A DNA stretch of 64,000 nucleotides from Candidatus Gottesmanbacteria bacterium RIFCSPLOWO2_01_FULL_39_12b (GCA_001780955.1 MFJR01000007.1:75053-139052); one strand, 5' to 3'; numbered from the stretch's first letter, positions 11,916-55,965 are shown. Notes: generated from the letters alone by a model not told the origin. A program made the numbers and translations.

Positions 11916-11924
11916 TGGTAAATA

Positions 11925-14144: not shown

Positions 14145-14151
14145 AGCGAGG

Positions 14152-20416: not shown

Positions 20417-20447
20417 AATATGGTAAAAATTACCTTATTGTATTACA

Positions 20448-22307: not shown

Positions 22308-22366
22308 TATACTACGAAAATGTCTTAATCCTAGAGAACGAATTAAATCAATTTATTTCAAAATTC

Positions 22367-27245: not shown

Positions 27246-28508
27246 TCAAATTTTCTTCACGATGAATCCTAGGATTACCTTTTTAATATACGTGATATGT
27301 TCGAAGCTTATTCCTGGAAAAACTCCGAGCCAAAAGGCTCCATTGAGAGCCACATCAGAATTTTCTACACTACCTGCTATTCTGTATTTGGTATGTTTAT
27401 ATGCAGGATGCCGAAGTAAATTACCAGAAAAAATTGTCCGAGTCCCAATTTTGTTTTCTTCTAGGTATTGAGTAAATTCATTTCGAGTAAATGGTGCGTT
27501 TTCTTTTACTATTGCCGGGAATCCAAACCAACAGGGATCTTCTTTCTCGGAAAGTTCCGGCAGGATAAAATATTTTTTGTACTGATCAAAAAACGCTCGC
27601 AGCTGAGCGTAATTTTCTTTCCGTTTTTTGATAAATTGGGGAAGTTTTTTTAGCTGTGCGACACCTATTGCGGCTTGAAAGTCGGTTAATTTCAGATTGT
27701 ACCCAATTTGGGTATACGTATACTTGTGATCGTACCCGAATGGGAGATCACCAAATTGCCAGCCGAAACGTTTTCTACATGTATTATCTTTTCCCGTATC
27801 ACACCAGCAATCTCTACCCCAATCTCGAAATTGCCTGATAGATCTATGAATAAGAGGATTATTGGTGATAACGGCTCCTCCTTCTCCCATCGTGATTTGA
27901 TGAGCAGGATAAAAGCTGTATGTTGCAATATCACCATACGTGCCGACAAGTTTTCCATTCCATCGGGAACCAAGAGCATCACAGCAATCCTCGATAACCC
28001 AGAGATTGTATTTCTTCGCAATTCGCGTTATCTGGGTAAGGTTGTACGGAATTCCCAGAGTATGAGCTACCATGATAAGTTTCGTCTTTTTCGTAATTGC
28101 TTTTTCAATTTTTCCAATATCGATATTGAATGTTTTAACATCGATATCAATAAAAACCGGTGTGAGTCCATATTGAATTCCGGGATTAACGGTCGTAGGG
28201 AAAGCAAGAGGTATGGCGATGTATTCATCACCACTTTTGAGGGCTCGATCCTTAAAAACGTTGGAGGTGAGAGAAGCTAGAGCGACAAGGTTGGCAGAAG
28301 AGCCAGAGTTGACTAGAGAAACGTATCTTATTCCCATAAAATTTCTGAAGTCCTTTTCAAACTGTTTCCCGAATTCTCCCTCTGTCCACCAGCCGTCACG
28401 GGCTACTTTTATAGCGTTGTTTATCTCTTCTTTGTCGAAAACTTTACCCGAAACGGGAATGTAGGTTCGACCTGGTATAAACGTTTTCTTCATTATTGAA
28501 ATCCCCAT
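27246..28508 (-). CDS. ddhC: CDP-4-dehydro-6-deoxyglucose 3-dehydrase (E1; RfbH/DdhC/AscC family, PMP- and [2Fe-2S]-dependent)
   Basis: 420 aa with near-collinear similarity to RfbH. SGSSANLVALASLTS, FPTTVNPGIQYGL, SFYPAHQITMGEGG (His replaces the PLP lysine), and cysteine cluster RDWGRDCWCDTGKDNTC (C-x-C-x7-C). Then YDHKYTYTQIGYNLKLTD. Confidence 0.85.
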   Translation of the reverse strand: MGISIMKKTFIPGRTYIPVSGKVFDKEEINNAIKVARDGWWTEGEFGKQFEKDFRNFMGIRYVSLVNSGSSANLVALASLTSNVFKDRALKSGDEYIAIPLAFPTTVNPGIQYGLTPVFIDIDVKTFNIDIGKIEKAITKKTKLIMVAHTLGIPYNLTQITRIAKKYNLWVIEDCCDALGSRWNGKLVGTYGDIATYSFYPAHQITMGEGGAVITNNPLIHRSIRQFRDWGRDCWCDTGKDNTCRKRFGWQFGDLPFGYDHKYTYTQIGYNLKLTDFQAAIGVAQLKKLPQFIKKRKENYAQLRAFFDQYKKYFILPELSEKEDPCWFGFPAIVKENAPFTRNEFTQYLEENKIGTRTIFSGNLLRHPAYKHTKYRIAGSVENSDVALNGAFWLGVFPGISFEHITYIKKVILGFIVKKI

Positions 28509-28575: not shown

Positions 28576-29277
28576 ATGAAAATTGGGATAATGCAACCAT
28601 ATTTATTTCCGTATATAGGTTATTTCCAATTGATAAAAGCTGTCGATAAATTTGTGATACATGATGATATTCAGTATATTAAAGGAGGCTGGATAAATAG
28701 AAACCGGATCCAAATTAACCATAAAGAACATCTGTTTACATTTAGCCTAAAAAGGGATAGTTCACTAAAAAATATCAATACTCGATTATTTTCAGATCAA
28801 TTTACCAAAGAGAGTGCTAATTTTTTAAGAATAGTTCAAAATACTTATAAAAAGTCCCCCTTTTTTATTTATATATACGATTTATTATCAAAAATATTAG
28901 CTTACAAAGAATTAAATATTTCATTATTCATAACAAATTCTCTCAAACTGATCTGTAATTACCTTGAAATAAAAACTCCTTTTTATCTGTCATCAAAGCT
29001 TTACAAAAATAATCAGTTAAAGGGTCAGGATAGAGTCATGAATATTTGCCAGACATTAGATGCCGAAGTCTATATCAATCCCATCGGCGGGAAGATTTTA
29101 TACTCAAAGGAAATATTTAAGGAAAATAATATTTCATTATTCTTTTTGCAAACCAAAGATATGAGTTTTGAGTTTAAAAAAGAGTGCTATATTCCCAACT
29201 TATCGATAATTGACGTAATGATGTTTAACTCTATTATAAAAATAAAAAAAATGTTAGACAGCTACGAATTAATATAA
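28576..29277 (+). CDS. WbqC-like family protein (O-antigen cluster associated, function unknown)
   Basis: N-terminus MKIGIMQPYLFPYIGYFQLIKAVDKFVIHDDIQYIKGGWINRNRI matches the WbqC-like signature (MQPYFFPYIGYFQLI...DDVQF...W.NRN). Confidence 0.7.
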   Translation: MKIGIMQPYLFPYIGYFQLIKAVDKFVIHDDIQYIKGGWINRNRIQINHKEHLFTFSLKRDSSLKNINTRLFSDQFTKESANFLRIVQNTYKKSPFFIYIYDLLSKILAYKELNISLFITNSLKLICNYLEIKTPFYLSSKLYKNNQLKGQDRVMNICQTLDAEVYINPIGGKILYSKEIFKENNISLFFLQTKDMSFEFKKECYIPNLSIIDVMMFNSIIKIKKMLDSYELI

Positions 29278-29291
29278 ACAGAAATAAAAAA

Positions 29292-30254
29292 ATGTTTAAA
29301 TGGAAAAAATTAGGAAGAGTTTTTAACCCTACGAAATATAAGGATAAAAGTTGGATGCGCGAATTTGCACAAGCACCTTCTGTTCTAATTTTTGATAAAT
29401 TTGTCAGGGTTTTTTTTGCCTGCAGACCTCTACGTGATAAAAACAGACAATACGTCAGCTATACAGGTTTTGTTGACTTAAATAGATACAATTTATTTGA
29501 AATAATTAATATCTCTAAAAGGCCGATTTTACAGTTAGGGGAAAGGGGAACTTTTGATGAATTTGGTACTTATCCTGTGTCAGTAATAAGAAAAGATAAT
29601 GAAATAATAGCCTATTATGGTGGATGGACAAGATGCGAATCAATTCCTTATACCGTATCCATTGGAGTGGCTAAAAGCCATGATAATGGAGTACATTTTA
29701 CTAAATTTGGCAGAGGTCCATTACTATCCTCCAATATTCTTGATCCATATGTCGTAAGTGGTCCAAAAGTCAGAAGGTTTAACGAGCGATGGTACTTGTG
29801 GTATGTGGCTGGAACGAAGTGGTTAGAGACTAATAGTAAACCAGAGGCAGTCTATAAAATCAGAATGGCATATTCAGTTGATGGAATTAATTGGACAAGA
29901 AATGGTAAGAATTTGATTGAGAATAAAATAGAAAAAAATGAGTGTCAGGCAAGTCCGGATGTAATTTATTATAAAGAAAAATATCATATGTTTTTTTGCT
30001 ATAAATATAGTCTGAATTTTAGAAATAACAAGAGAGGTTATAAAATTGGTTATGCATATTCTGATGATCTGACGCATTGGATAAGGGATGATACAAAAGC
30101 AGGTATAGATATATCAAGAAAAGGTTGGGATGGTGAGTCAATCGCTTATCCCCATGTTTTTGAACTCGACAATAATCTTTATATGCTTTATTTAGGAAAT
30201 CAAGTTGGTAGATATGGTTTTGGATTGGCACAACTAGAAGATTATAAACAATAA
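29292..30254 (+). CDS. Beta-propeller glycosidase/phosphorylase-superfamily protein (GH130/GH43-like, DUF377-like), tandem copy 1
   Basis: 320 aa. WKKLGRVFNPTKY...FAQAPSVLIFDKFVRVFFA with recurring W/Y-rich blade-like segments. Paralog of the next ORF. Confidence 0.4.
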   Translation: MFKWKKLGRVFNPTKYKDKSWMREFAQAPSVLIFDKFVRVFFACRPLRDKNRQYVSYTGFVDLNRYNLFEIINISKRPILQLGERGTFDEFGTYPVSVIRKDNEIIAYYGGWTRCESIPYTVSIGVAKSHDNGVHFTKFGRGPLLSSNILDPYVVSGPKVRRFNERWYLWYVAGTKWLETNSKPEAVYKIRMAYSVDGINWTRNGKNLIENKIEKNECQASPDVIYYKEKYHMFFCYKYSLNFRNNKRGYKIGYAYSDDLTHWIRDDTKAGIDISRKGWDGESIAYPHVFELDNNLYMLYLGNQVGRYGFGLAQLEDYKQ

Positions 30255-30258
30255 AAAT

Positions 30259-31221
30259 ATGAAATGGAAAAAATTTGGCAAGATATTTGATCCTACAAGA
30301 CACAAATTATCAAATAATTGTGTTGAATTTGCTCAATCACCACAAGCATTAGTTTTCGATGATTATGTCAGGATTTATTTCTCAACAAGAGAAAAAGATA
30401 AAACCGGAAAATATTTAAGCCATATATCATTTATTGATATCGATAAAAAATTCAAGAATATAATCAATGTTTCTTCAGATACAGTAATTGAATTGGGTAA
30501 TTTAGGCTGCTATGACGAACATGGTATATTTCCATTAAATATTCTAAGAGATAGTAACAAAATACTTGGATATATTGGTGGTTGGAACAGGAGAGTTTCA
30601 GTGCAAACAGATGGTTCTATAGGTTTAGCAGTCAGCAATGATCAGGGTTTAACTTTTAAACGAATCGGAGATGGTCCTGTGCTAACATCATCACTTCATG
30701 AGCCTTTTATGATGGGTGATCCGTTTGTTCAAATGTATGATGGTATTTATCATATGTGGTATATATACGGTACTCAGTGGATAGAAGCTTCAAAGGAGAA
30801 GGAACCACAACGTGTGTATAAAATTGGACACGCTACATCACATAATGGAATTTCATGGCAAAAAGAAGGTAGGCAATTGATCGCTGACAAGCTGAATTTC
30901 AATGAATGCCAGGCCCTTCCTACGGTCATAAAAGTTAAAAATAAATATCACATGTTATTTTGTTACAGACAGGCAACTGACTTTAGAAAAAATAGAGAAC
31001 GTAGCTATAGAATTGGGTATGCTTTTTCAAAAGATTTAAAAGAGTGGACGAGAGATGATGATACTGTTGGAATTGATGTTTCGGAAGATGATTGGGATTG
31101 TGATATGCTTTGTTACCCTCATGTTTTTCGATGCGATGGGAAGATATATTTATTGTATAATGGAAATGAATTTGGACGATTTGGATTTGGTCTTGCAATA
31201 TTGGAAGATGTTGAAAATTAA
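30259..31221 (+). CDS. Beta-propeller glycosidase/phosphorylase-superfamily protein, tandem copy 2
   Basis: 320 aa. WKKFGKIFDPTRH...FAQSPQALVFDDYVRIYFS. Collinear with copy 1 (the NECQA, KYHM(F/L)FCY and AYPHVF / CYPHVF motifs are shared). Confidence 0.4.
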   Translation: MKWKKFGKIFDPTRHKLSNNCVEFAQSPQALVFDDYVRIYFSTREKDKTGKYLSHISFIDIDKKFKNIINVSSDTVIELGNLGCYDEHGIFPLNILRDSNKILGYIGGWNRRVSVQTDGSIGLAVSNDQGLTFKRIGDGPVLTSSLHEPFMMGDPFVQMYDGIYHMWYIYGTQWIEASKEKEPQRVYKIGHATSHNGISWQKEGRQLIADKLNFNECQALPTVIKVKNKYHMLFCYRQATDFRKNRERSYRIGYAFSKDLKEWTRDDDTVGIDVSEDDWDCDMLCYPHVFRCDGKIYLLYNGNEFGRFGFGLAILEDVEN

Positions 31222-31259
31222 ATATCAATTCAAAGATAATAAAACAAAGAAAAATACCA

Positions 31260-31817
31260 ATGAATATTAAAGGGAAAATAGTAACTTTAAGAGCTATAGA
31301 AGAGACTGATCTCAATCTTCTTCATAAATGGGCAAATGATCCTGAAATACAGGATATTATGGGCGTTATTCACTTCCCAAGTTCCATGGATTTCCATAGA
31401 TTATGGTTTCAAAACCTTAAGAGTGATCTTTTAAATCAACGGTTTGCTATTAATATGTCTGGTATTGGTTTGATTGGAATTTCAAGTCTAATGAGTATTG
31501 ACTGGCGAAATAATCATGCATGGCATGGAATAATGTTAGGAGACGCAAAAATTCGGGGAAAAGGATATGGTGTTGATGCAGTTATGGCTACGATGCGGTA
31601 TGCGTTTGAAGAATTACATTTTGAACGGCTTGATGGTTCAATAATTGAAAATAATAACATATCTTATTCCTTTTATTGTAATAAGTTAGGTTGGAAAGAA
31701 GAGGGTTTGAGAAGAAACTGGTATTTCAGGAGAGGTCGGTATTGGGATCAAATAATTGTAGGTATCACAAAGAAAGACTATGAGCAACTTGTGCAAAAAA
31801 CGAGATATTGGGACTAA
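31260..31817 (+). CDS. GNAT family N-acetyl/acyltransferase (RimJ/RimL-like)
   Basis: 185 aa. KIVTLRAIEETDLNLLHKWANDPEI...LHFERLDGSIIENNNISYSFYCNKLGWKEEGLRRNWYF: GNAT fold motifs. Confidence 0.75.
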   Translation: MNIKGKIVTLRAIEETDLNLLHKWANDPEIQDIMGVIHFPSSMDFHRLWFQNLKSDLLNQRFAINMSGIGLIGISSLMSIDWRNNHAWHGIMLGDAKIRGKGYGVDAVMATMRYAFEELHFERLDGSIIENNNISYSFYCNKLGWKEEGLRRNWYFRRGRYWDQIIVGITKKDYEQLVQKTRYWD

Positions 31818-33115
31818 GCAGCTGAAAAAAAGAAGGAAAAAGGTAATAAGTCTAAAAACAGTTGCCATTATCGGTGCAAATGGGACAATGGGTGCAATGA
31901 CAGGAGGACTTTTTGCGCAATGTGGTTTTAGGGTCTACTTTATCAGTAAAACAATTGAAAAATCCAAAATTGGAATGCAAAAAGCATTCCATCAGGCACA
32001 ATCTGAAATAATCGGCAAAAATATAATTTGTTCTGGCTATTCAGAAATTTCGCACATACTTCCCAAATGTAACTGGATTATCGAGTGTGTCAAAGAGGAT
32101 ATTGACGTAAAAAAAGCAACGTATAAAGTAATTGATACCTATAGAAAAAAAGGGTCCGTAGTTAGCTCAATGACATCAAGTCTTCCTTTACCAAAAATAA
32201 TCGAAGGCACGAGTGATGATCTAAGACGAAACTTTATCGGATTTCATCTATTTAATCCTCCAAATAAATTAACGCTTTGTGAAATTGCCCCAATAAAAGA
32301 TACAGATAAAGCAGTTGTAGATCTTGTTTCAAAAATTGCTCAGAAATATCTTTTTCGTACAGTAATTCCTGTTCGTAATGTAGCTGGTTATGTAGGAAAT
32401 AGAATAGGATTTAAATTTTTCTCAGATGTCACTAAAGAAGTACCCAAATATGGTGTTGAAATGATAGATTATTTACTTGGTCCATATATTGGAAGAGCTA
32501 TGTCACCACTTGCGACATTAGATTTAATTGGCATAGACAATTATACGTAGTCTTATGACTCATATTGTTGACGGTAAATCAGATGAATTTATGCTTCCCC
32601 ATTTTATTAATACGATGGTAGAATTAGGACGCTTAGGAAATAAAACTCCAGATAAGGGCGGATTTTATAAACGTAAATACGATAAGTCAAAAACAGTTCT
32701 TAACATTAAGTCTTTTACTTATGCAAGTGTTTCATGTGTCAAAATTCCTTTTGTGGAACAAGCAAAACAATATATAAGAGAAGGCAGATATTTTGATGCT
32801 TTCACTGAAATTAAAAAAAGCAGTGAAAAAAAAGCTGATTTTATTCGCAAAATTTTATGTTCTTACGTAGCTTATTCTTTTGCGTGTGTGGGTGAAGTAA
32901 CACACAAAAAATATGGAATAGAATTGATTGATAAAGCCATGGCGTATGGCTTTAATTGGGCTCCTCCTACTCTCATTATGCAATTGTTTGGAGGAAAAAA
33001 AGAAATCATACCATTGCTTAAACACTACTCTATAGAAATCCCAAACTCCTTACTGGAATTTTCTGAATTGCCTTTATTTAACCCACGTCATGGTATATAC
33101 TTTCTTGCCAAATGA
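31780..33115 (+). pseudogene. 3-hydroxyacyl-CoA dehydrogenase (Hbd/FadB-like) split into two ORFs (31780-32550 and 32555-33115) by a frameshift plus stop inside the conserved LDLIGLD motif
   Basis: ORF 1: AIIGANGTMGAMTGGLFAQCG (NAD-binding GxGxxG) ... ATLDLIGIDNYT*. ORF 2 is in a different frame: MTHIVDG...LGRLGNKTPDKGGFYKRKYD (3HCDH C-terminal domain motif LGRKSGKGFYDY). Together they are collinear with an intact enzyme. Confidence 0.6.
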
Positions 33116-33128
33116 AAAACTTAAACCT

Positions 33129-34361
33129 ATGAATCAGAAACCTGTATACATATTGGGTGGTTATCAAACGGATTTCGCAAGAAATTGGTCTAAAGAGAAT
33201 AAACATATCGTTGCGATGATACGCGAAGTTCTTGAAGGAGGGATAATGGAGACGTTGCTTCCTATAGAGGATATTAATGCTGCTTTTGTCGCTAACTTTG
33301 CTGGAGAACTTTATGTAAATCAAGGATTACTCGGCGCATTCCTGGTTGAAGCAGATTCACGACTTACGGGTATTCCTTCTACGAGAGTGGAAGCTGCTTG
33401 TGCGTCTGGTTCCGTAGCAATATTAAATGCAATCGCATTTATTCAAGCGGGAATTTATGATGTAGTGTGGGTAGTTGGAGTTGAACAGATGAAAACTGTC
33501 GGTGGGCAAGAAGGTTCTAAGTATTTAGGCAGAGCTGCTTGGTATGAAAAAGAAGCTAAAGATATTGATTTTCCATTCCCAAAACTTTTTGGAAGGCTTG
33601 TTGATGTATATGATAAGCGGTATGGCATAGAAACAAAATATTTAGCAGCTATAGCAGAGAAAAATTATGCAAATGCAAAGAGAAATCCCAATGCGCAAAC
33701 CAGGAATTGGTACATGAGTTTTGATCATGCGAACACTATTGGAGAATATAATCGTATTTTGTCTGGAAAGTTGAGATTAACTGATTGTTCTCACGTTACC
33801 GATGGGGCAGTTTCGCTCTTTCTAGCCTCATCTGATTATACTAAAAAGCATGCAAAGAAACATAATAAAAAACTTGAATCTATTCCCCGCATATTGGGAT
33901 GGGGACAAACAACCGCTCCTGTGGAATTCGATAAAAAAATTCGGGAGTCAGAGAAAGATAACTATGTTCTCCTTTATACTCGTAAAGCTATACTTCATGC
34001 CTTCAAAAAATCTGGAGTTAAAAATTGTTGGGATTTAGATCTTGTTGAAACACATGATTGTTTTACCTCAGCAGAATATATGGCGATTGACCATTTTGGT
34101 TTGACAGCGCCTGGAGAATCATGGAAGGCGATAGAGAATGGAGTTGTTAATTTCAATGGTAAACTTCCATTTAATCCATCAGGGGGACTGATAGGCGTTG
34201 GACATCCGGTTGGCGCCACAGGTGTTCGTCAAATACTGGATGCTTTCAAACAGGTAAACAATACGGCCAAAGATTATCAAATTGAAAACGCCAGAAAGGT
34301 TGCCACTCTAAATATTGGTGGATCAGCAACAACCAATGTGTGCATGATTATCGGAAAATAA
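33129..34361 (+). CDS. Thiolase-family protein (SCP-x / archaeal-type acetyl-CoA C-acyltransferase-like)
   Basis: Active-site region VEAACASGSVAILNA and C-terminal GGLIGVGHPVGATGVRQI...NIGGSATTNVC. The ORF track starts at 33090. An ATG at 33129 (MNQKPVYILGG) just after the upstream stop looks more likely. Confidence 0.75.
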   Translation: MNQKPVYILGGYQTDFARNWSKENKHIVAMIREVLEGGIMETLLPIEDINAAFVANFAGELYVNQGLLGAFLVEADSRLTGIPSTRVEAACASGSVAILNAIAFIQAGIYDVVWVVGVEQMKTVGGQEGSKYLGRAAWYEKEAKDIDFPFPKLFGRLVDVYDKRYGIETKYLAAIAEKNYANAKRNPNAQTRNWYMSFDHANTIGEYNRILSGKLRLTDCSHVTDGAVSLFLASSDYTKKHAKKHNKKLESIPRILGWGQTTAPVEFDKKIRESEKDNYVLLYTRKAILHAFKKSGVKNCWDLDLVETHDCFTSAEYMAIDHFGLTAPGESWKAIENGVVNFNGKLPFNPSGGLIGVGHPVGATGVRQILDAFKQVNNTAKDYQIENARKVATLNIGGSATTNVCMIIGK

Positions 34362-34375
34362 AATCTTTCTTTAAT

Positions 34376-35119
34376 ATGAAAATAAGAAGAGACTACGACA
34401 AAGAACTAAAAAATGCGAATGGTTATAAGTATGCATATAATTTTGATTTGGATGTTATGCACCCATTTATGATCCGAGCCTTTGAACCTTTTTTAAGACA
34501 AGGAAATTTACTGGAGTTAGGAAGTTACCAAGGGAATTTTACAAAAAGACTTTTACCGTATTTCAATGATATAACTTGTGTGGAAGCATCAGATGAAATA
34601 ATTGCTCTTGCAAAAAAAAGATTAGGGAATAAAGTTAAGTTTATACATTCAATTTTCGAAACAGCAAGTTTACCTTCAAAATACGATAATATCATACTAA
34701 CTCATACGCTTGAACATCTTGATAATCCTGTGCTGGTTTTAAAAAGAATAAATAATGAGTGGTTGTCAGAAAAAGGCAGATTCTTTTTGGTTTGCCCCAA
34801 TGCCAATGCACCTTCCAGACAAATTGCCGTCAAAATGGGTTTAATAAGCCATAATACGGCGGTAACTCCGTCAGAAGTAAAACATGGTCATAGAACCACG
34901 TACACTCTTGATACATTAGAGAGAGATGCAAAGGCCGGGGGACTAAATGTAGTTTATCGTTCTGGTATTTTTTTTAAAGCTTTTGCAAATTTTCAATGGG
35001 ACAGGCTGCTTAAGACAGATATTATTTCCCAAGAATATTTAGAAGGATGCTACGTATTAGGACAACAATACCCGGACTTATGTTCCAGTATTTTTTTACT
35101 GTGTGAAAAAGGAAAATAA
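34376..35119 (+). CDS. Class I SAM-dependent methyltransferase
   Basis: LLELGSYQGNFTKRLLPYFNDITCVEASDEIIALAKKRLG (motif I/II). The track ORF starts at 34340. The ATG at 34376, after the thiolase stop, is preferred. Confidence 0.7.
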   Translation: MKIRRDYDKELKNANGYKYAYNFDLDVMHPFMIRAFEPFLRQGNLLELGSYQGNFTKRLLPYFNDITCVEASDEIIALAKKRLGNKVKFIHSIFETASLPSKYDNIILTHTLEHLDNPVLVLKRINNEWLSEKGRFFLVCPNANAPSRQIAVKMGLISHNTAVTPSEVKHGHRTTYTLDTLERDAKAGGLNVVYRSGIFFKAFANFQWDRLLKTDIISQEYLEGCYVLGQQYPDLCSSIFLLCEKGK

Positions 35120-35120
35120 T

Positions 35121-36041
35121 ATGAAAATATCCTTCTCTATCGCGGTGTATCGTAATGAAGGATCAATTAGGAAAACATATGAAAAAATCAAGAAGATTTT
35201 TGCTACTACGCTTAAAAATTATCAATACGAGTTTGTTTTTGTAGATGACGGTTCAGGCGATAATTCTTTAAAGGAAATACTAGATATTAAGGAGCATGAT
35301 TCAAAGGTTAAGGTAATTGCGTTTACGAGGAATTTTGGTCAAATGGCTGCCATGCTTGCGGGACTGAAAGAAGCAAGTGGGGATGCGGTTATAAACATAT
35401 CAGCAGATATGCAGGATCCTATTAGCCTTATTCCTCAAATGGCGGAAAAATGGAAAGAGGGATCAGAGATAGTTGTTTGCTACCGTATTAACAGGCAAGA
35501 TAATTTTGCCGCCAAATTATTTTCGCGTTGTGCCTATTCACTGTTAAGATTATCTATTCCTCAAATACCGGTAGGAGGGTTTGACTATGTTCTTATGGAT
35601 AGAGCGGTATTAGATGTGTTTAATTCTATTGATGTGCGCAACAGATTTTTCCAGGGTGATTTACTTTGGGCGGGTTTCAGAACGAGTTTCATTCCATACG
35701 TTCGTCTTAAACGGTTAATTGGTAAATCACAGTATAGTTGGGGAAAAAAGCTTAAAAATTTTTTAGATGCTTTTCTTGATTCTTCATACCTTTCAATCCG
35801 CCTTATTTCACTCATTGGTATTCTTATATCGTGTTTGGGTGTGATATATAGCATAACTATTGTTTATAGCTGGCTCAGGGGCGGTACGCCTTTTACTGGT
35901 TGGGCTCCGATTATGATTTCTATTTTATTTGTAGGCGGATTGATTATGGTGATGCTTGGTGTAATTGGTGAATATATCTGGCGGATATATGACGAGGTTC
36001 GTAAGAAGCCAAATTACATTATTAGAAAGAAATATCTATAA
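35121..36041 (+). CDS. Polyprenol-phosphate glycosyltransferase, GT2 with C-terminal TM helices (GtrB/ArnC/CsbB/DPM1-like), copy 1
   Basis: MKISFSIAVYRNEGSI...FVFVDDGSGDNSL...FTRNFGQMAAMLAGL...ADMQDP, plus two C-terminal hydrophobic helices. AGGA-like RBS 8 nt upstream of the ATG at 35121 (the track start at 35103 overlaps the upstream gene). Confidence 0.8.
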   Translation: MKISFSIAVYRNEGSIRKTYEKIKKIFATTLKNYQYEFVFVDDGSGDNSLKEILDIKEHDSKVKVIAFTRNFGQMAAMLAGLKEASGDAVINISADMQDPISLIPQMAEKWKEGSEIVVCYRINRQDNFAAKLFSRCAYSLLRLSIPQIPVGGFDYVLMDRAVLDVFNSIDVRNRFFQGDLLWAGFRTSFIPYVRLKRLIGKSQYSWGKKLKNFLDAFLDSSYLSIRLISLIGILISCLGVIYSITIVYSWLRGGTPFTGWAPIMISILFVGGLIMVMLGVIGEYIWRIYDEVRKKPNYIIRKKYL

Positions 36042-36043
36042 GT

Positions 36044-36057
36044 CTTGTAGCTACAAG
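36044..36057. other. Perfect 14-bp palindrome CTTGTAGCTACAAG (extends imperfectly to ~19 bp) immediately after the GtrB-like gene stop
   Basis: Read directly from sequence. Possible operator or weak terminator hairpin. No downstream T-tract. Confidence 0.2.
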
Positions 36058-36083
36058 GACAGAAACGACATAGATATACAGAA

Positions 36084-37208
36084 ATGAAACCATTCTCAAA
36101 ACCTATTTATATTACCCGGCCTCTGATGCCCCCGTTGCATAAATTTACCGCCAAACTACGGCAAATTTGGAAAAGTAAATGGCTATCAAATAACGGAATA
36201 CAGCTTCAAACGCTAGAGAAAAAAATTCAGAGAGTTCTAAAAGTTCCCCATATATCCTTATTTAATAACGGAACTATTGCACTGCTTACTGCTATTAAAA
36301 GTTTGAATCTCAAGGGAGAAGTTATTACAACACCTTTTACATTTCCGGCGACTCCTAACTGTCTTACTTGGTGCAATATTACACCTGTATTTTGTGATAT
36401 TGATTCCGTAACCATGAACATTGATCCTGCGAAAATAGAAAAAAATATAAATAAGAAAACTACCGGGATTTTGGCGGTTCACGTATTCGGATCACCATGT
36501 GATGTACCTACGATTCAGAAAATAGCTGAAAGAAATAGTTTAAAAGTTGTCTATGATGCCGCCCACGGCTTTGAAATCGAAATTAATAATATTGGAATCG
36601 GAAATTTTGGAGACATTTCAATGTTTAGTTTTCATCCGACAAAATTATTTCATACAGGAGAAGGTGGGGCACTTACCTGTAAGGACAAGATTCTTAAAAA
36701 GAAAATTGATTTACTGAGAAATTTTGGGATAAAAAATGAAGAGGAAGTTCTATTACCCGGGATAAACGGTAAGATGAACGAATTGATATCTGCGTTTGGA
36801 CATGTTCTTCTTCCGCTTGTTAAGGCTGAACAAAAGAGGCGAAAACGAATAAGCGAACTCTATAAACGCTATATAGATAATATACCTGGAGTTACCTATC
36901 AGAAAGATATACCCATGGTAAAAACTAATTATCAATATTTTGTAATCAGAATTAACAGTAGAATATTTGGGCGTTCGCGTAATGACGTATATAATATTTT
37001 TCGAACATATAACATATATGCAAGGAAGTATTTTTTTCCTCTTTGCAGCCAGTATCCATATTACAAGCATTTACCCTCTTCCAATCCGAAAAATTTACCA
37101 AACGCCCATAGGATAGCCGATGAAGTTCTAGCTCTGCCATTTTACGGACAGCTATCAATAAGTGAAGCGGAAAAAATTATTTCACTCTTAAAGTCATTAG
37201 GGAAATAG
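36084..37208 (+). CDS. DegT/DnrJ/EryC1/StrS-family PLP-dependent sugar aminotransferase
   Basis: 374 aa. LFNNGTIALLTAIKSL, DAAHGFE, and FSFHPTKLFHTGEGGAL (lysine retained). Confidence 0.85.
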   Translation: MKPFSKPIYITRPLMPPLHKFTAKLRQIWKSKWLSNNGIQLQTLEKKIQRVLKVPHISLFNNGTIALLTAIKSLNLKGEVITTPFTFPATPNCLTWCNITPVFCDIDSVTMNIDPAKIEKNINKKTTGILAVHVFGSPCDVPTIQKIAERNSLKVVYDAAHGFEIEINNIGIGNFGDISMFSFHPTKLFHTGEGGALTCKDKILKKKIDLLRNFGIKNEEEVLLPGINGKMNELISAFGHVLLPLVKAEQKRRKRISELYKRYIDNIPGVTYQKDIPMVKTNYQYFVIRINSRIFGRSRNDVYNIFRTYNIYARKYFFPLCSQYPYYKHLPSSNPKNLPNAHRIADEVLALPFYGQLSISEAEKIISLLKSLGK

Positions 37209-37209
37209 T

Positions 37210-37959
37210 ATGGATAAGAAGGATAAATATGTGCATAGTATGGATTGGACACAAAAAGCAGGAAACTACGAACTGCATAATTATCGAAAATATCAATACG
37301 ATCTTATTGCCAAATATATCGGAAATAATATTCTAGAGGTAGGAAGTGGAGAAAAAGGATTCACGAACGAAATAGTAAAAAATGCTAAAAATATTAAAAG
37401 ATTAATCTCAATAGAACCGTCTAAAACTCTTTTTTACCTTCATAAAAATAAACACCAATTTCCTGATTATGTTTCTTTTCATATGAAAGACCTTTTTGAT
37501 CTGAGTCTCAAAACATTCGGATCTTTTGATACAGTATTGTTTATCCATACACTGGAACACATAAAGGAAGATAAAAAAGCTTTGGATAAAGCCTGCGAGC
37601 TTCTGAGATCCGGGGGCTTTATCTTAATTGAAGTCCCGGCACTGCAATTTTTATTTTCTTCTCATGACAAAGCCTTGGGTCATTACCGCAGGTACAGAAA
37701 ACAACATTTACTATCTTTGATAGACAAAAAAAAATTAACAGTAGTAGATATGTGGTATCAGGATTTTTTGGGCATGTTAGGATCATTATTATTTTTTAAA
37801 TTTAAGAAGATAACCCTGAACTCAAGCTCCGGAGTCAATCTTGTAAAGAACCAAGGAAGATTGTACGACAACTACGTAGTTCCTCTTCAATGTTTCATCG
37901 AAAAACACGTTAGATTACCTATAGGATTAAGCTTAACCGCAGTACTTGAAAAAAAATAA
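37210..37959 (+). CDS. Class I SAM-dependent methyltransferase
   Basis: ILEVGSGEKGFTNEIV...LISIEPS...VLFIHTLEHI. Confidence 0.7.
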   Translation: MDKKDKYVHSMDWTQKAGNYELHNYRKYQYDLIAKYIGNNILEVGSGEKGFTNEIVKNAKNIKRLISIEPSKTLFYLHKNKHQFPDYVSFHMKDLFDLSLKTFGSFDTVLFIHTLEHIKEDKKALDKACELLRSGGFILIEVPALQFLFSSHDKALGHYRRYRKQHLLSLIDKKKLTVVDMWYQDFLGMLGSLLFFKFKKITLNSSSGVNLVKNQGRLYDNYVVPLQCFIEKHVRLPIGLSLTAVLEKK

Positions 37960-39877: not shown

Positions 39878-41713
39878 ATGCAATTTACTATGCAGCAGAA
39901 ACTGTCTGATTTTGTCGTCCAGTTTATTGAAGAATTAGGAGTAAAGCATATTTTCCTTGTATCAGGTGGGGGGAATATTCATCTGATTGATTCAGTTGGA
40001 AAGAGTAAAAAATTTGACTACGTTTGTAATCATCACGAGCAAGCCTCAGCTACCTCAGCTGAAAGCTATGCTAGAGTTACAGGAAATATAGGTGTATGTT
40101 TGACTACAACCGGTCCGGGAGGAACGAATGCCATAACAGGTGTTCTTGGTGCCTGGCAAGACTCAATTCCTATTTTGGTTATTTCCGGTCAAGTAAAAAG
40201 AGAACTTCTTTCCTGGAAAGTTGATAAAAATCTGCGGCAGCTGGGAGACCAGGAAGTGAATATCGTTGAGATGGTGAAATCTATCACAAAATACAGCGTT
40301 ACGGTAATGGAGGCTTCGGATATTCGTTATCATTTGGAAAAAGCGGTTTACTTGGCAAGAAGTGGCAGACCCGGTCCGGTTTGGCTGGATATACCTCTTG
40401 ATATCCAGGGATCATTTATAGACCCAGCGAGTTTGCGAGGATTTGGTCCAAAAGAATTAACTCCTTCTTATCAGACGAACAAACAAAAAATTAAGGAATT
40501 AGTAAAAGTTGTAGTTCAAAGACTAGAAAAAGCAGAAAGACCCGTTCTTTATGCAGGTCATGGTATCCGGTTAAGCGGGGCGGAAAAGGAATTTTTGGAA
40601 TTTGTAAACAAGTTAAAAATTCCGGTGCTTTTAAGCTATGCAGGCTATGATTTACTTCCAAATGAGCATCCGTATTATTTTGGCAGAGCTCATGCTTTTG
40701 GACAACGAGCGGCAAATTTTATTATCCAAAATAGCGATTTATTAATCTCAGTTGGAGCCCGTTTTGATGTTCGAACCATAGGATTTACTTACAAAGCGTT
40801 TGCGAGGGCCGCGTATAAAGTAATGGTGGATATAGATAGGGGAGAACTTGAGAAACCCATTCTATCGCCTGACTTTCCCATTAACTGTGACGCAAAAGAG
40901 TTTATCTTGGAGATGATAAACCAACTTAAACAAAAACCGTTCAAAAAAAATATTTCAGACTGGCTAAATTATGGTAGAAGTTTAAACAAAAAATATCCAG
41001 TTGTTTTACCCCAATATTGGCAGGAAAGGAAGTATGTGAATCCTTACTGTTTCATAGAAACAATAGGCAAATATCTGAAACCGGATGAGATCATTGTATT
41101 ATCGGATGGTGTAGGACCTTTAAATTGTATGTATCAAGCTTTTGTAGTAAAAAAGGGGCAGAGAATAATTTTGAATAACGGGTGTGCTCAGATGGGGTAT
41201 GGTTTACCTGCGGCAGTAGGGGCGGCTTTTGCAGCCGGTAAAAAGAAGCGAATAGTTTGTTTTGAAGGTGATGGGAGTCTGCAGTTAAATATCCACGAAC
41301 TTCAAGTGATGAAACATCATAACCTTTCCATAAAACTTTTCATTTATAGCAATGATGGTTATCTCTCAATCCGCAATACGCAAAATAATCTTTTTGAGAA
41401 GAGACATGTTGCGGTTGATTCACACAGTGGTGTAAGTTCTCCTGATTTTGTGAAAGTAGCCAAAGCTTACGGTTTTCCTGCAGAACGCATATACAATCAT
41501 AAGGATATGGAAGAAAAAATCCAGAAAGTATTAAATTTTCCAGGACCCATAGTTTGTGATATAAATGCAGTGCGTGAGCTTATGCTCAGGCCTAAACTCA
41601 TGGCCAAAAAACTTCCAAACGGACAATTTGTATCGCCTCCTCTTGAAGATATGGGTCCGTTTCTGCCCCGAGACGAATTTAAACAAAATATGCTTATACC
41701 TATATGGGAATAA
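39878..41713 (+). CDS. Thiamine-diphosphate-dependent acetolactate-synthase-like enzyme (YerE-like candidate sugar C-branching enzyme rather than IlvB)
   Basis: 611 aa. N-terminal Pyr domain GGGNIHLIDSVGKS...CLTTTGPGGTNAITGVLGAWQDSIPILVISGQV. C-terminal PP domain GDGSLQLNIHELQ. No small-subunit gene nearby. Embedded in the sugar locus. Confidence 0.75.
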   Translation: MQFTMQQKLSDFVVQFIEELGVKHIFLVSGGGNIHLIDSVGKSKKFDYVCNHHEQASATSAESYARVTGNIGVCLTTTGPGGTNAITGVLGAWQDSIPILVISGQVKRELLSWKVDKNLRQLGDQEVNIVEMVKSITKYSVTVMEASDIRYHLEKAVYLARSGRPGPVWLDIPLDIQGSFIDPASLRGFGPKELTPSYQTNKQKIKELVKVVVQRLEKAERPVLYAGHGIRLSGAEKEFLEFVNKLKIPVLLSYAGYDLLPNEHPYYFGRAHAFGQRAANFIIQNSDLLISVGARFDVRTIGFTYKAFARAAYKVMVDIDRGELEKPILSPDFPINCDAKEFILEMINQLKQKPFKKNISDWLNYGRSLNKKYPVVLPQYWQERKYVNPYCFIETIGKYLKPDEIIVLSDGVGPLNCMYQAFVVKKGQRIILNNGCAQMGYGLPAAVGAAFAAGKKKRIVCFEGDGSLQLNIHELQVMKHHNLSIKLFIYSNDGYLSIRNTQNNLFEKRHVAVDSHSGVSSPDFVKVAKAYGFPAERIYNHKDMEEKIQKVLNFPGPIVCDINAVRELMLRPKLMAKKLPNGQFVSPPLEDMGPFLPRDEFKQNMLIPIWE

Positions 41714-45319: not shown

Positions 45320-45321
45320 TC

Positions 45322-46419: not shown

Positions 46420-46436
46420 TAGCAAAAGGAGAAATT

Positions 46437-55958: not shown

Positions 55959-55965
55959 TTAAAGA

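What the first reader, a model, noticed from the sequence alone, without database searches (positions are those of the whole stretch)
31260..34361. Acyl-CoA module (GNAT + 3-hydroxyacyl-CoA dehydrogenase + thiolase) embedded in the glycan island: candidate 3-hydroxybutanoyl/acyl decoration
**What the sequence shows**
- A GNAT acyltransferase (31260-31817) overlaps an Hbd-type NAD-dependent 3-hydroxyacyl-CoA dehydrogenase.
- That is followed by a thiolase-fold enzyme (33129-34361).

**Established background**
- These enzymes are central-metabolic, and their presence between sugar-modifying genes is unexpected.
- N-(3-hydroxybutanoyl) amino sugars occur in several O-antigens and are made from acetoacetyl/3-hydroxybutyryl-CoA.

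**Interpretation**
- With the DegT aminotransferase (36084-37208) downstream, this trio could generate and transfer a short hydroxyacyl group onto an amino sugar.
Basis: inference. Interest (0 to 1): 0.6.

Follow-up and report, generated by a model that had tools for sequence, protein, structure and literature searches.

The report
Acyl-CoA gene pair inserted in sugar-tailoring cassette
In the large surface-sugar gene island of a tiny candidate-phyla-radiation bacterium, two genes that could make 3-hydroxybutyryl-CoA sit inside a widely shared amino-sugar tailoring cassette, which suggests a built-in supply of an unusual sugar decoration, although one of the two genes is broken by a frameshift in this strain.

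Summary
The genes are real and sit at the stated coordinates, but the "trio" is two separate modules.

**Module 1: a shared tailoring cassette.**
- The GNAT (31260-31817) belongs to a cassette found in many phyla: DegT, WbqC, two beta-propeller proteins, GNAT, methyltransferase, GT2.
- The GNAT is 60-79% identical in Gammaproteobacteria, Clostridia and many metagenome contigs.
- In 40 of 53 evaluable loci the GNAT is followed directly by the methyltransferase. None of 80 loci carries a thiolase.

**Module 2: an inserted gene pair.**
- The pair is a 428-aa-family 3-hydroxyacyl-CoA dehydrogenase (HCDH) followed by an SCP2-type thiolase.
- This adjacent pair is conserved across many phyla.
- The window's closest relatives sit in glycan clusters beside N-acyltransferases, sugar aminotransferases or de-N-acetylases.

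**Independent support.** Nine of 83 cassette loci carry an unrelated, canonical Hbd-type dehydrogenase. This is a second recruitment of the same chemistry.

The dehydrogenase is split by a 1-nt insertion near 32539 into ORFs 31780-32550 and 32555-33115. All six other assemblies that carry this locus show the same split, but they appear to be the same strain. Every homologue is a single protein.

It is a new variant of a known kind: donor synthesis encoded inside a glycan cluster.

The parts
28576..29277 (+). WbqC-like protein, first gene of the conserved tailoring cassette
   Evidence: Pfam PF08889, 206.5 bits. It is 38-50% identical to the WbqC genes at the head of the same cassette in L092-L094 and L097-L176.
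29292..30254 (+). Beta-propeller protein 'GHa' (weak GH130/GH32-like), cassette core
   Evidence: Weak Pfam GH32N/GH130 hits. It is 53-80% identical across cassette loci.
30259..31221 (+). Beta-propeller protein 'GHb', a paralogue of GHa, cassette core
   Evidence: Weak Pfam hits. Orthologues in cassette loci are mostly 50-74% identical; the lower matches of 34-49% are to the GHa paralogue or come from rearranged loci.
31260..31817 (+). GNAT N-acyltransferase (Acetyltransf_3, SpeG/PseH-like), cassette core; proposed transferase for the acyl group
   Evidence: Pfam 62 bits. PseH model TIGR03585 scores 62 bits, below the 93.1 cutoff. It is 60-79% identical across phyla. Closest solved structures are SpeG 3tth (48 bits) and PseH 4ri1 (23.6 bits).
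31780..32550 (+). N-terminal fragment (256 aa) of the 3-hydroxyacyl-CoA dehydrogenase: NAD-binding domain plus the first half of the C-domain
   Evidence: 3HCDH_N 99.7 bits; 3HCDH C-domain matches profile positions 1-53 of 97 only. S133, H156, E168 and N207 are conserved (A1).
32534..32557 (+). Frameshift site: one extra base near 32539, stop codon TAG at 32548-32550, ATG of the downstream ORF at 32555
   Evidence: Read directly from the sequence. The site is identical in L001-L006.
32555..33115 (+). C-terminal fragment (186 aa) of the same dehydrogenase, in the +1 frame
   Evidence: Matches S. aureus FadB model positions 259-375. It aligns with the C-terminal half of the 428-aa homologues and keeps all invariant residues.
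33129..34361 (+). SCP2-type thiolase (410 aa)
   Evidence: NCBIfam PRK06289, 568.9 bits against a 375 cutoff. Motifs CASG, HDCF and GHP are present; NEAF and CxG are absent. Closest solved structures are trypanosomatid SCP2-thiolase-like proteins 4bi9 and 3zbg. It follows the dehydrogenase directly in about 55 loci.
34376..35119 (+). NodS-like SAM methyltransferase (247 aa), cassette core; normally lies directly after the GNAT
   Evidence: Pfam Methyltransf_23. It is mostly 62-78% identical in cassette loci (54-55% where only part of the gene lies on the contig), and adjacent to the GNAT in 40 of 53 evaluable loci.
35103..36041 (+). GT2 polyprenyl-phosphate sugar transferase-like protein (PgfS/ArnC-like), frequent cassette member
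   Evidence: NCBIfam PgfS 206 bits and ArnC 138 bits, both below cutoff. It is 43-72% identical in cassette loci.
36084..37208 (+). DegT-family sugar aminotransferase (DesI/VioA-like), maker of the presumed amino-sugar acceptor
   Evidence: Pfam 302 bits. DesI model scores 266 bits, below its 650 cutoff. It is mostly 38-58% identical to cassette DegT genes; three loci show only 25-34%.
37210..37959 (+). Second SAM methyltransferase
   Evidence: Pfam Methyltransf_11/23. It is 52% identical to the gene downstream of the GT2 in L117.

Best explanation
**Origin.** The window comes from a Candidatus Gottesmanbacteria genome (candidate phyla radiation, CPR).

**What the locus is.** It is a composite of two modules.
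1. A horizontally widespread amino-sugar tailoring cassette: DegT, WbqC, two beta-propeller proteins, GNAT, methyltransferase, GT2.
2. A portable two-gene acyl-CoA module, inserted exactly between the GNAT and its methyltransferase. It consists of a 3-hydroxyacyl-CoA dehydrogenase (HCDH) of the kind found in multifunctional beta-oxidation enzymes, followed by an SCP2-type thiolase.

**Most likely mechanism (inferred).**
- The thiolase condenses two acetyl-CoA into acetoacetyl-CoA.
- The dehydrogenase reduces this with NADH to (S)-3-hydroxybutyryl-CoA.
- The GNAT transfers the acyl group to the amino group that DegT introduces on an NDP-4-keto-6-deoxyhexose.
- The methyltransferases add O-methyl groups.
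- The product would be an N-(3-hydroxybutanoyl), O-methylated amino-dideoxyhexose, comparable to the modified viosamine of Pseudomonas syringae flagellin or to anthrose.

**Why the module would be in the cluster.** By general knowledge, a CPR cell lacks fatty-acid and butyrate metabolism, so the donor has to be made inside the cluster.

**Status in this strain.** The dehydrogenase is split in the middle of its C-domain by a 1-nt insertion. The reduction step is therefore either carried out by two fragments translated by coupling, or lost.

**Shown versus inferred.**
- Shown: gene identities, the frameshift, the insertion, conservation of the pair, and the recurrent glycan contexts.
- Inferred: direction of the reactions, identity of the acyl group, and the GNAT's donor and acceptor.
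For: **Source**
- Source name comes from P0002.

**The insertion**
- The GHa-GHb-GNAT-methyltransferase block is 57-76% identical to Thalassomonas, Clostridium sulfidigenes and a metagenome contig, where GNAT and methyltransferase are 37-52 nt apart.
- The GNAT is directly followed by the methyltransferase in 40 of 53 evaluable metagenome loci. The thiolase is found in 0 of 80.
- In the window all four junctions are tight. The GNAT and dehydrogenase ORFs overlap by 38 nt, and the other gaps are 4, 13 and 14 nt, all on one strand.

**Conservation of the pair**
- The thiolase lies directly downstream of the dehydrogenase in about 55 loci from many phyla.

**Glycan contexts of the closest relatives**
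- L007 (65% identical).
  - GNAT.
  - SDR.
  - Polysaccharide deacetylase.
  - Pair.
  - Epimerase.
  - GT2.
- L010, L013, and L012 and L014: pair plus GNAT, with an ATP-grasp protein and priming glycosyltransferases in most.
- L096: the same, inside a Wzy-type EPS cluster.
- The NJ tree puts the window in this clade.

**Other clades**
- Bacillota L057: two MocA-type oxidoreductases, DegT, pair, PglD-like N-acyltransferase, PIG-L deacetylase, Bac_transf.
- CPR Shapirobacteria L043: GT2, GNAT, deacetylase, pair, UDP-sugar dehydrogenase.

**Independent recruitment**
- Nine of 83 cassette loci, and 7 of the 36 that span WbqC to GHa, carry a canonical 283-aa Hbd-like gene.
  - It scores 3HCDH_N 166 bits and 3HCDH_C 122 bits.
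  - Its best NCBIfam hit is 3-hydroxybutyryl-CoA dehydrogenase at 318 bits.
  - It is only 23-28% identical to the window enzyme.

**Catalytic residues**
- The thiolase and both dehydrogenase fragments keep their catalytic residues.

**Precedents**
- The P. syringae viosamine island makes dTDP-Qui4N(3-hydroxybutanoyl)2Me with in-cluster VioS, VioR, ACP, VioB and VioM (PMC3927599).
- In E. coli O103, Hafnia and Acinetobacter the papers read describe only the 3-hydroxybutanoyltransferase in the cluster.
Against: - The dehydrogenase is frameshifted in the only strain sampled. The cut falls inside the C-domain at Pfam profile position 53 of 97, not at a domain boundary.
- The dehydrogenase has no canonical start codon at the position where homologues start. 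The only ATG lies inside the GNAT gene and adds a Lys/Arg-rich extension of about 24 aa.
- The GNAT is 60-79% identical to GNATs of cassettes that have neither enzyme, so its donor could simply be acetyl-CoA.
- Most orthologous pairs (Binatia, Myxococcota, Chloroflexi, Leptospira) show no glycan neighbours. One close relative, L008, sits among MaoC dehydratases, a carboxylase and a crotonase, which is ordinary acyl-CoA metabolism.
- SCP2-type thiolases and HAD-type dehydrogenases are reversible and often degradative.
- No experiment or glycan structure exists for any organism carrying this cassette.
Confidence: 0.5

Rival explanations
1. The module is a decaying relic in this strain. It may once have supplied an acyl donor, but the dehydrogenase is now a pseudogene. 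The cassette works as it does elsewhere without the pair, with the GNAT acting as an ordinary N-acetyltransferase, and no hydroxybutanoyl sugar is made.
For: - A 1-nt insertion splits the gene inside its C-domain.
- No other split member was seen among the 120 hits listed (824 hits in all), so the split is not a conserved design.
- The canonical start codon is absent.
- Most cassette loci work without any dehydrogenase or thiolase.
- Natural frameshift inactivation of an acyl-sugar operon is known for anthrose in West African B. anthracis (PMC6947953).
Against: - Both fragments keep every family-invariant residue, and there is no second lesion.
- The downstream fragment starts with an ATG only 4 nt after the stop codon, which allows translational coupling.
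- The thiolase is fully intact with its catalytic motifs.
- GC and GC3 match the neighbouring genes, so nothing marks the pair as foreign DNA.
Confidence: 0.2
2. The pair is housekeeping or independent acyl-CoA metabolism, such as ketone-body, fatty-acid or polyhydroxybutyrate (PHB)-type turnover, or acetoacetyl-CoA supply for isoprenoids. It merely landed in the glycan island and has no role in glycan decoration.
For: - The pair is conserved in many phyla with no glycan neighbours. L095 lies among unrelated housekeeping genes. L008 lies with MaoC, a carboxyltransferase and a crotonase.
- Both enzyme families are classically metabolic.
Against: - No crotonase, acyl-CoA dehydrogenase, PHA synthase, CoA-transferase or HMG-CoA synthase was found among the roughly 50 window ORFs scanned.
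- The pair sits inside an operon-like run, between two genes that are otherwise adjacent.
- Seven of eight members of its clade lie beside a GNAT, in a glycan cluster, or both.
- A second, unrelated dehydrogenase type was recruited into the same cassette.
Confidence: 0.12
3. The pair does serve the glycan, but by different chemistry from that proposed. It could build or reduce an acyl group already attached to the sugar, as proposed for VioS and VioR on N-acetyl and N-acetoacetyl viosamine. It could make a longer or branched hydroxyacyl group. Or it could feed another acyltransferase of the island, such as the left-handed beta-helix (LbH) enzyme at 24766-25416, or an O-acylation step.
For: - The P. 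syringae pathway is proposed to pass through dTDP-N-acetoacetylviosamine (PMC3927599).
- SCP2-type thiolases accept varied substrates, and the closest solved relatives are of uncertain physiological role.
- The island has another acyltransferase and a FabG/acetoacetyl-CoA-reductase-like SDR at 44651-45319.
- Partner acyltransferases differ between architectures: GNATs of three types and a PglD-like LbH enzyme.
Against: - Thiolases and HAD-type dehydrogenases act on CoA thioesters in all characterised cases (established knowledge).
- No acyl-CoA ligase, ACP or longer-chain primer source was found in the window.
- The gene nearest to the pair is the GNAT.
Confidence: 0.15

Closest known systems
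Viosamine island of Pseudomonas syringae pv. tabaci (vioA, vioB, vioS, vioR, acp, vioM, vioT), which makes dTDP-Qui4N(3-hydroxybutanoyl)2Me for flagellin
   Same: - A glycan island holds a DegT-type 4-aminotransferase, an N-acyltransferase, a methyltransferase, and dedicated enzymes that build a C4 3-hydroxyacyl group by Claisen condensation followed by keto-reduction (PMC3927599).
- The cassette in C. sulfidigenes lies between flagellin genes, and in Thalassomonas next to FlgO genes.
   Different: - There the condensing enzyme is a KAS III and the reductase an SDR, working with an ACP. Here they are a CoA-dependent SCP2-type thiolase and a HAD-type dehydrogenase, and no ACP or KAS III is present.
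- The stereochemistry expected from a HAD-type enzyme is (S).
- The WbqC and beta-propeller genes have no counterpart there.
Anthrose operon antABCD of Bacillus anthracis
   Same: - An acyl-CoA-metabolising enzyme is encoded in a sugar operon to supply a beta-hydroxyacyl-CoA donor for N-acylation of a 4-amino-4,6-dideoxyglucose, which is also O-methylated. The enzyme roles are from my own knowledge. The operon and its natural frameshift-inactivated variants are described in PMC6947953.
   Different: - In anthrose the donor enzyme is an enoyl-CoA hydratase and the transferase an LbH protein (my own knowledge). Here they are a thiolase plus dehydrogenase and a GNAT.
- No hydratase is present in the window.
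O-antigen and capsule clusters with N-3-hydroxybutanoyl sugars (E. coli O103 / Salmonella O55 FdhC; Acinetobacter QdhC, QhbC, PsaG/H, LgaH/I)
   Same: An amino sugar made by a DegT-type aminotransferase is acylated with 3-hydroxybutanoyl by an acyltransferase encoded in the cluster (PMC4869667, PMC3726653, PMC9676051).
   Different: - In the papers read, only the transferase is described in those clusters and no donor-synthesis genes are mentioned. Here donor-synthesis genes are in the cluster.
- Sequence relatedness of the window GNAT to those transferases was not tested.
Housekeeping thiolase/Hbd of butyrate or PHB pathways
   Same: The same two reaction types: acetoacetyl-CoA formation and 3-keto reduction.
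   Different: - The dehydrogenase belongs to a 428-aa family with an extra domain and misses all Hbd cutoffs.
- The thiolase is SCP2-type (HDCF motif), not AtoB/PhaA-type.
- No crotonase, Bcd/Etf or PhaC is nearby.

Membership tests
3-hydroxyacyl-CoA dehydrogenase family (Pfam 3HCDH_N + 3HCDH) | NAD-binding Rossmann domain with a glycine-rich loop | tested here: met
   3HCDH_N 99.7 bits, residues 27-199; the loop reads IIGANGTMG.
3-hydroxyacyl-CoA dehydrogenase family (Pfam 3HCDH_N + 3HCDH) | Catalytic His-Glu dyad plus conserved Ser and Asn | tested here: met
   S133, H156, E168 and N207 are invariant or nearly invariant in alignment A1 and are present in the window. Their catalytic role is assigned by analogy with human HAD (established knowledge).
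3-hydroxyacyl-CoA dehydrogenase family (Pfam 3HCDH_N + 3HCDH) | Contiguous C-terminal helical domain in one polypeptide | tested here: not met
   A frameshift cuts the C-domain at profile position 53 of 97. The remainder is in ORF 32555-33115.
Hbd-type 3-hydroxybutyryl-CoA dehydrogenase (about 280-290 aa) | Length and architecture, and a score above the NCBIfam Hbd cutoffs | tested here: not met
   PRK05808 scores 76 bits against a 408 cutoff. The restored protein is 444 aa and its homologues about 428 aa, with an extra FadB-like C-terminal domain.
SCP2-type thiolase (NCBIfam PRK06289) | Score above the curated cutoff | tested here: met
   568.9 bits against 375, full length.
SCP2-type thiolase (NCBIfam PRK06289) | Sequence fingerprints: CxS nucleophile, HDCF in place of NEAF, GHP, and no C-terminal CxG | tested here: met
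   CASG at residue 91, HDCF at 309, GHP at 358; NEAF and CxG absent. The fingerprint definition is from my own knowledge. The closest PDB entries are trypanosomatid SCP2-thiolase-like proteins.
SCP2-type thiolase (NCBIfam PRK06289) | Biosynthetic acetoacetyl-CoA-forming activity | not testable with these tools
   Needs an enzyme assay.
PseH (UDP-4-amino-4,6-dideoxy-AltNAc N-acetyltransferase, TIGR03585) | Score above the equivalog cutoff | tested here: not met
   62 bits against 93.1. PseH structure 4ri1 scores only 23.6 bits, and SpeG scores higher.
Sugar N-3-hydroxybutanoyltransferases (FdhC, QdhC, QhbC, PsaH, LgaI) | Sequence relatedness to a characterised member, or use of 3-hydroxybutyryl-CoA | not tested
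Activity needs an assay.
WbqC / beta-propeller / GNAT / methyltransferase tailoring cassette (uncharacterised; defined here) | Gene order DegT, WbqC, (MTase), GHa, GHb, GNAT, MTase, (GT2), with high identity | tested here: met
   All members are present and collinear, at 38-80% identity. The only departures are the insertion of the pair and DegT lying downstream.
Butyrate or PHB housekeeping operon | Co-located crotonase and butyryl-CoA dehydrogenase/Etf, or PhaC/PhaB | tested here: not met
   None was found among the window ORFs scanned with Pfam and NCBIfam.
P. syringae-type viosamine island | KAS III (VioS), ACP and SDR (VioR) next to vioA and vioB | tested here: not met
   No KAS III or ACP is present. 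A FabG-like SDR lies 10 kb away at 44651-45319. The resemblance is functional only.

The most novel reading that the evidence does not exclude
The dehydrogenase plus SCP2-type thiolase pair is an unrecognised, portable donor-supply module for hydroxyacyl decoration of surface glycans. It has been recruited repeatedly next to different N-acyltransferases (three GNAT types and a PglD-like LbH enzyme), together with aminotransferases or de-N-acetylases. It would let metabolically minimal CPR bacteria, which lack fatty-acid metabolism, make an N-(3-hydroxybutanoyl) sugar. By extension, the widespread and uncharacterised WbqC cassette would make an N-hydroxybutanoyl, O-methyl amino-dideoxyhexose of the modified-viosamine or anthrose type, including on flagellins.
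Probability: 0.35. Interest if true: 0.6.

Novelty: new variant of a known kind. Interest (0 to 1): 0.5.

Why it matters
- **Annotation.** It would assign a role to a gene pair that is routinely annotated as beta-oxidation enzymes.
- **A testable prediction.** It predicts a product for a cassette found in many phyla: a hydroxybutanoylated, methylated amino sugar.
- **CPR biology.** It would show how a CPR bacterium with minimal metabolism can carry the donor pathway for a surface decoration inside the glycan island itself. The surface glycans of these bacteria are essentially unknown.
- **Strain variation.** The frameshift suggests that this decoration is variable, or being lost, in this strain.

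Tried and rejected
- **Literature on 3-hydroxybutanoyl with thiolase or dehydrogenase.** The searches returned only PHB and butyrate papers. No glycan cluster with these enzymes was found.
- **Literature on WbqC.** It gave no function.
- **Anthrose enzyme roles.** I could not cite them from the library. Only the operon and its natural inactivating mutations could be cited.
- **L004 as evidence of decay.** This contig seemed to show a 141-nt deletion in the GNAT. It is a scaffold containing Ns with a divergent 5' flank, so I treated it as an assembly artefact.
- **Programmed +1 frameshifting.**
  - No slippery or prfB-like motif precedes the stop codon.
  - The ancestral frame resumes right after GAC at 32538, judged by similarity to homologues (IIR against the consensus IHK).
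  - No homologue is split.
- **Sequencing error.** Rejected. The site is not a homopolymer, and all six other assemblies carrying the locus agree. They are, however, the same strain.
- **Recent foreign origin of the pair.** GC and GC3 are the same as in the neighbouring genes.
- **PseH membership of the GNAT.** It fails the cutoff.
- **Limit of the context survey.** The tblastn marker panel is insensitive. The label "no glycan context" for the Binatia, Myxococcota and Leptospira loci was checked with Pfam only for L095 and L008.

Full report
**1. What is there**

The region lies in a run of same-strand genes:

| Coordinates | Gene |
|---|---|
| 28576-29277 | WbqC-like protein |
| 29292-30254, 30259-31221 | Two paralogous beta-propeller proteins with weak GH130/GH32-like hits |
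| 31260-31817 | GNAT |
| 31780-32550 | ORF with a 3-hydroxyacyl-CoA dehydrogenase (HCDH) NAD-binding domain |
| 32555-33115 | ORF with no Pfam hit, matching S. aureus FadB model positions 259-375 |
| 33129-34361 | Thiolase |
| 34376-35119 | Methyltransferase |
| 35103-36041 | PgfS/ArnC-like GT2 |
| 36084-37208 | DegT aminotransferase |
| 37210-37959 | Second methyltransferase |

- Every other ORF I scanned in the 64-kb window is glycan-related. These include:
  - GT2 and GT4 transferases;
  - an ABC-2 exporter pair;
  - a glucose-1-phosphate cytidylyltransferase-like gene;
  - several 4,6-dehydratases and epimerases;
  - an RfbH-type 3-dehydrase.
- The window comes from Candidatus Gottesmanbacteria, a candidate-phyla-radiation (CPR) bacterium. 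The name is given by a source of P0002.

**2. The dehydrogenase is split by a frameshift**

- The first ORF ends ...LDLIGIDNYT*. The family sequence then continues in the +1 frame as (IIRSL)MTHIVDGKSDEFMLP....
- Removing base 32539 gives a 444-aa protein. It aligns end to end with 26 homologues at 33-65% identity and keeps all invariant positions in both halves.
- Apart from the window's own 256-aa fragment (P0002), almost all of the 120 listed homologues are single proteins of about 412-485 aa. The one shorter entry is 335 aa, from a 2-kb contig.
- The same sequence is present in all six other contigs that carry this locus. Five are 100% identical to the window over up to 21 kb. The lesion is therefore real in this strain, but only one strain is sampled.
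- The cut falls at Pfam 3HCDH C-domain position 53 of 97, inside a domain.
- The downstream ATG lies 4 nt after the stop codon, so coupled translation of a two-piece enzyme is possible but unproven.
- No start codon exists at the position where homologues start. The only ATG lies within the GNAT gene.
- The enzyme is not Hbd-type.
  - Hbd models score 76 bits against a cutoff of 408.
  - The extra C-terminal part of about 140 aa has no match in solved structures by sequence.

**3. The thiolase**

- It passes the curated cutoff of NCBIfam PRK06289, 568.9 against 375.
- It carries CASG, HDCF and GHP, and lacks NEAF and CxG. This is the SCP2-type fingerprint; the definition is from my own knowledge.
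- Its nearest solved relatives are trypanosomatid SCP2-thiolase-like proteins, followed by acetoacetyl-CoA thiolases that include the archaeal enzyme 6esq.

**4. The "trio" is two modules**

*The GNAT belongs to a shared cassette.*
- It is 60-79% identical to proteins from very different organisms, including Thalassomonas haliotis, Clostridium sulfidigenes, Sphingobacteriales and Deltaproteobacteria.
- Their neighbourhoods show a conserved cassette: DegT, WbqC, (methyltransferase), GHa, GHb, GNAT, 247-aa methyltransferase, (GT2).
  - In C. sulfidigenes it lies between flagellin genes.
  - In Thalassomonas it lies next to FlgO genes.
- The GHa-GHb-GNAT-methyltransferase core is 57-76% identical to the window.
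- Among 80 metagenome loci the GNAT is directly followed by that methyltransferase in 40 of 53 evaluable cases. None carries a thiolase.
- In the window the two genes are instead separated by 2.56 kb, which holds exactly the dehydrogenase and the thiolase, with overlaps or gaps of 4-14 nt.
- GC and GC3 of the inserted genes equal those of their neighbours.

*The pair is a separate, conserved unit.*
- A genome-collection scan with the dehydrogenase alignment returned 80 loci. In about 55 of the loci examined, the window-type thiolase (46-75% identical) lies immediately downstream.
- The phyla include Binatia, Myxococcota, Chloroflexi, Leptospira, Planctomycetes, Bacillota and CPR.

**5. What the pair's neighbours say**

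| Locus (identity to the window dehydrogenase) | Context |
|---|---|
| L007 (65%) | Acetyltransf_9 GNAT, SDR, polysaccharide deacetylase, pair, epimerase, GT2 |
| L010 (45%) | Pair, GNAT, GT4-family priming transferase, ATP-grasp |
| L013 (44%) | GT4, Bac_transf, Acetyltransf_3 GNAT, methyltransferase, pair, GNAT-ATP-grasp fusion, priming transferase |
| L096 (45%) | Pyruvyl transferase, GT4s, Wzy, pair, GNAT, sulfotransferase, ATP-grasp |
| L012, L014 | A related GNAT directly after the thiolase |
| L008 (48%) | MaoC dehydratases, a carboxylase and a crotonase: ordinary acyl-CoA metabolism |
| L057 (Bacillota) | MocA oxidoreductases, DegT, pair, PglD-like N-acyltransferase, PIG-L deacetylase, Bac_transf |
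| L043 (CPR Shapirobacteria) | GT2, GNAT, polysaccharide deacetylase, pair, UDP-sugar dehydrogenase |
| L095 (Binatia-like) | Pair alone among unrelated housekeeping genes |

- A neighbour-joining tree places the window with L007 and L008, sister to the five loci L010, L012, L013, L014 and L096. Seven of these eight clade members have the pair beside a GNAT, in a glycan cluster, or both.
- L060 resembles L057.
- The large Binatia/Myxococcota/Chloroflexi clade and the Leptospira clade show no glycan markers with my panel.
- The logic that recurs in the glycan-linked architectures is:
  1. an enzyme that exposes a sugar amine (an aminotransferase or a de-N-acetylase), where one is encoded nearby;
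  2. an N-acyltransferase;
  3. the pair.

**6. An independent line of evidence**

- Nine of 83 cassette loci carry a canonical 283-aa dehydrogenase between WbqC and the upstream methyltransferase. This holds for 7 of the 36 loci that span WbqC to GHa.
- It scores 3HCDH_N 166 bits and 3HCDH_C 122 bits. Its best NCBIfam hit is 3-hydroxybutyryl-CoA dehydrogenase PRK05808, at 318 bits over its full length, below the 408 cutoff.
- It is only 23-28% identical to the window enzyme, and the copies are 47-100% identical to one another.
- Two different members of this enzyme family, at two different positions, have therefore joined the same cassette. This is hard to explain unless the cassette's chemistry uses a 3-hydroxyacyl or 3-ketoacyl thioester.
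- GNATs from loci with the Hbd gene are no more different from the window's than those from loci without it: 63-72% against 60-79%. This is consistent with one shared donor, which most hosts would supply from general metabolism.

**7. Mechanism proposed (inferred)**

1. The thiolase makes acetoacetyl-CoA from acetyl-CoA.
2. The dehydrogenase reduces it to (S)-3-hydroxybutyryl-CoA.
3. The GNAT acylates the amino sugar that DegT makes.
4. The methyltransferases add O-methyl groups.
5. The GT2 may move the sugar onto a polyprenyl phosphate.

- The roles of WbqC and the two propeller proteins remain unknown.
- In a CPR organism, which by general knowledge lacks fatty-acid metabolism, an in-cluster donor supply would be needed. 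That would explain why both enzymes are here, whereas other hosts carry none or only the Hbd gene.

**8. Comparison with known systems**

- The closest analogue in logic is the P. syringae viosamine island. There VioA, VioB, VioS (KAS III), VioR (SDR), ACP and VioM make dTDP-Qui4N(3-hydroxybutanoyl)2Me (PMC3927599).
- The anthrose operon is similar in spirit. Its enzyme roles are from my own knowledge; the operon and its natural frameshift variants are in PMC6947953.
- For classical O-antigen and capsule clusters with N-3-hydroxybutanoyl sugars, the papers read describe only the transferase in the cluster.
- I found no report of a thiolase plus HAD-type dehydrogenase in a glycan cluster.
- I therefore rate it a new variant of a known kind.

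**9. Verdict**

- **Observation:** partly confirmed. The genes are real. The frameshift and the second ORF were missed, and the enzyme subfamily was misnamed.
- **Interpretation:** partly supported. There is good comparative support for a link between the pair and glycan N-acylation. However:
  - the GNAT is not a dedicated partner of the pair;
  - the pair is not specific to glycans overall;
  - the dehydrogenase is broken in this strain;
  - nothing has been shown biochemically.
- **Scores:** confidence in the proposed mechanism is about 0.5, and interest is 0.5.

Noticed in passing
window 28576-37208; loci L092-L094, L097-L176: The cassette WbqC, two beta-propeller proteins, GNAT, NodS-like methyltransferase (plus DegT and GT2) is strongly conserved across distant phyla: 57-79% identity for the core proteins. 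It has no described function. In Clostridium sulfidigenes it lies between flagellin genes, and in Thalassomonas next to FlgO genes, which points to a horizontally spread sugar-tailoring unit.
   Followed up: partly
window 27246-28508 (-), 39878-41713 (+), 43665-44654 (+), 48172-49904 (-): The ORF at 27246-28508 is an RfbH-type CDP-6-deoxy-4-keto-hexose 3-dehydrase (628 bits against a 423 cutoff), not an aminotransferase. Together with a cytidylyltransferase-like gene, two CDP-glucose 4,6-dehydratase-like genes and an acetolactate-synthase-like ThDP enzyme, it suggests a CDP-3,6-dideoxyhexose pathway. The product may be branched, as in yersiniose.
   Followed up: partly
window 9699-24625 (-): Seven tandem genes encode large polytopic membrane proteins of 603-752 aa, with roughly 8-14 hydrophobic segments each. 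They fall into two paralogue groups, at 30-46% identity within each group. Only faint YfhO/DUF6311 similarity was found. They could be GT-C-type glycosyltransferases or polymerases.
   Followed up: partly
window 44651-47231 (+): Three adjacent genes: a FabG/acetoacetyl-CoA-reductase-like SDR, which looks about 20 aa short at its N-terminus; an AroB-related sugar-phosphate cyclase (TIGR04425, 377 bits, just below the 400 cutoff); and an HpcH-type aldolase. The SDR could in principle replace the broken dehydrogenase, giving (R)-3-hydroxybutyryl.
   Followed up: no
window 55170-56877 (+): A split transketolase, with N- and C-terminal halves as two genes, sits inside the glycan island. This arrangement suggests transfer of a two-carbon unit onto a sugar.
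   Followed up: no
window 31780-31860: The dehydrogenase has no start codon where its homologues begin. The only ATG lies 38 nt inside the GNAT gene and adds a Lys/Arg-rich extension (MSNLCKKRDIGTKQLKKRRKK). A purine-rich stretch, GAAGGAAAAAGG, precedes an in-frame ATA at the expected start position.
   Followed up: partly
L010 (10001-15388), L013 (9959-15560), L014, L096 (9001-15321): A recurrent unit of dehydrogenase, thiolase, GNAT and ATP-grasp protein (fused GNAT-ATP-grasp in L013) lies next to a GT4-family priming transferase in Planctomycetes-like and other genomes. The ATP-grasp protein hints at a further amide-linked substituent.
   Followed up: partly
L004 (scaffold from ERZ28564302): This near-identical contig lacks 141 nt of the GNAT gene and has a different 5' flank. 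It also contains a run of Ns, so this is probably a scaffolding artefact and not a real variant.
   Followed up: yes
L048, L050, L051, L061 (Leptospira): Leptospira species carry the same adjacent dehydrogenase-thiolase pair, at 32% and 50-53% identity. No glycan markers were detected nearby, and the role of the pair there is unknown.
   Followed up: no
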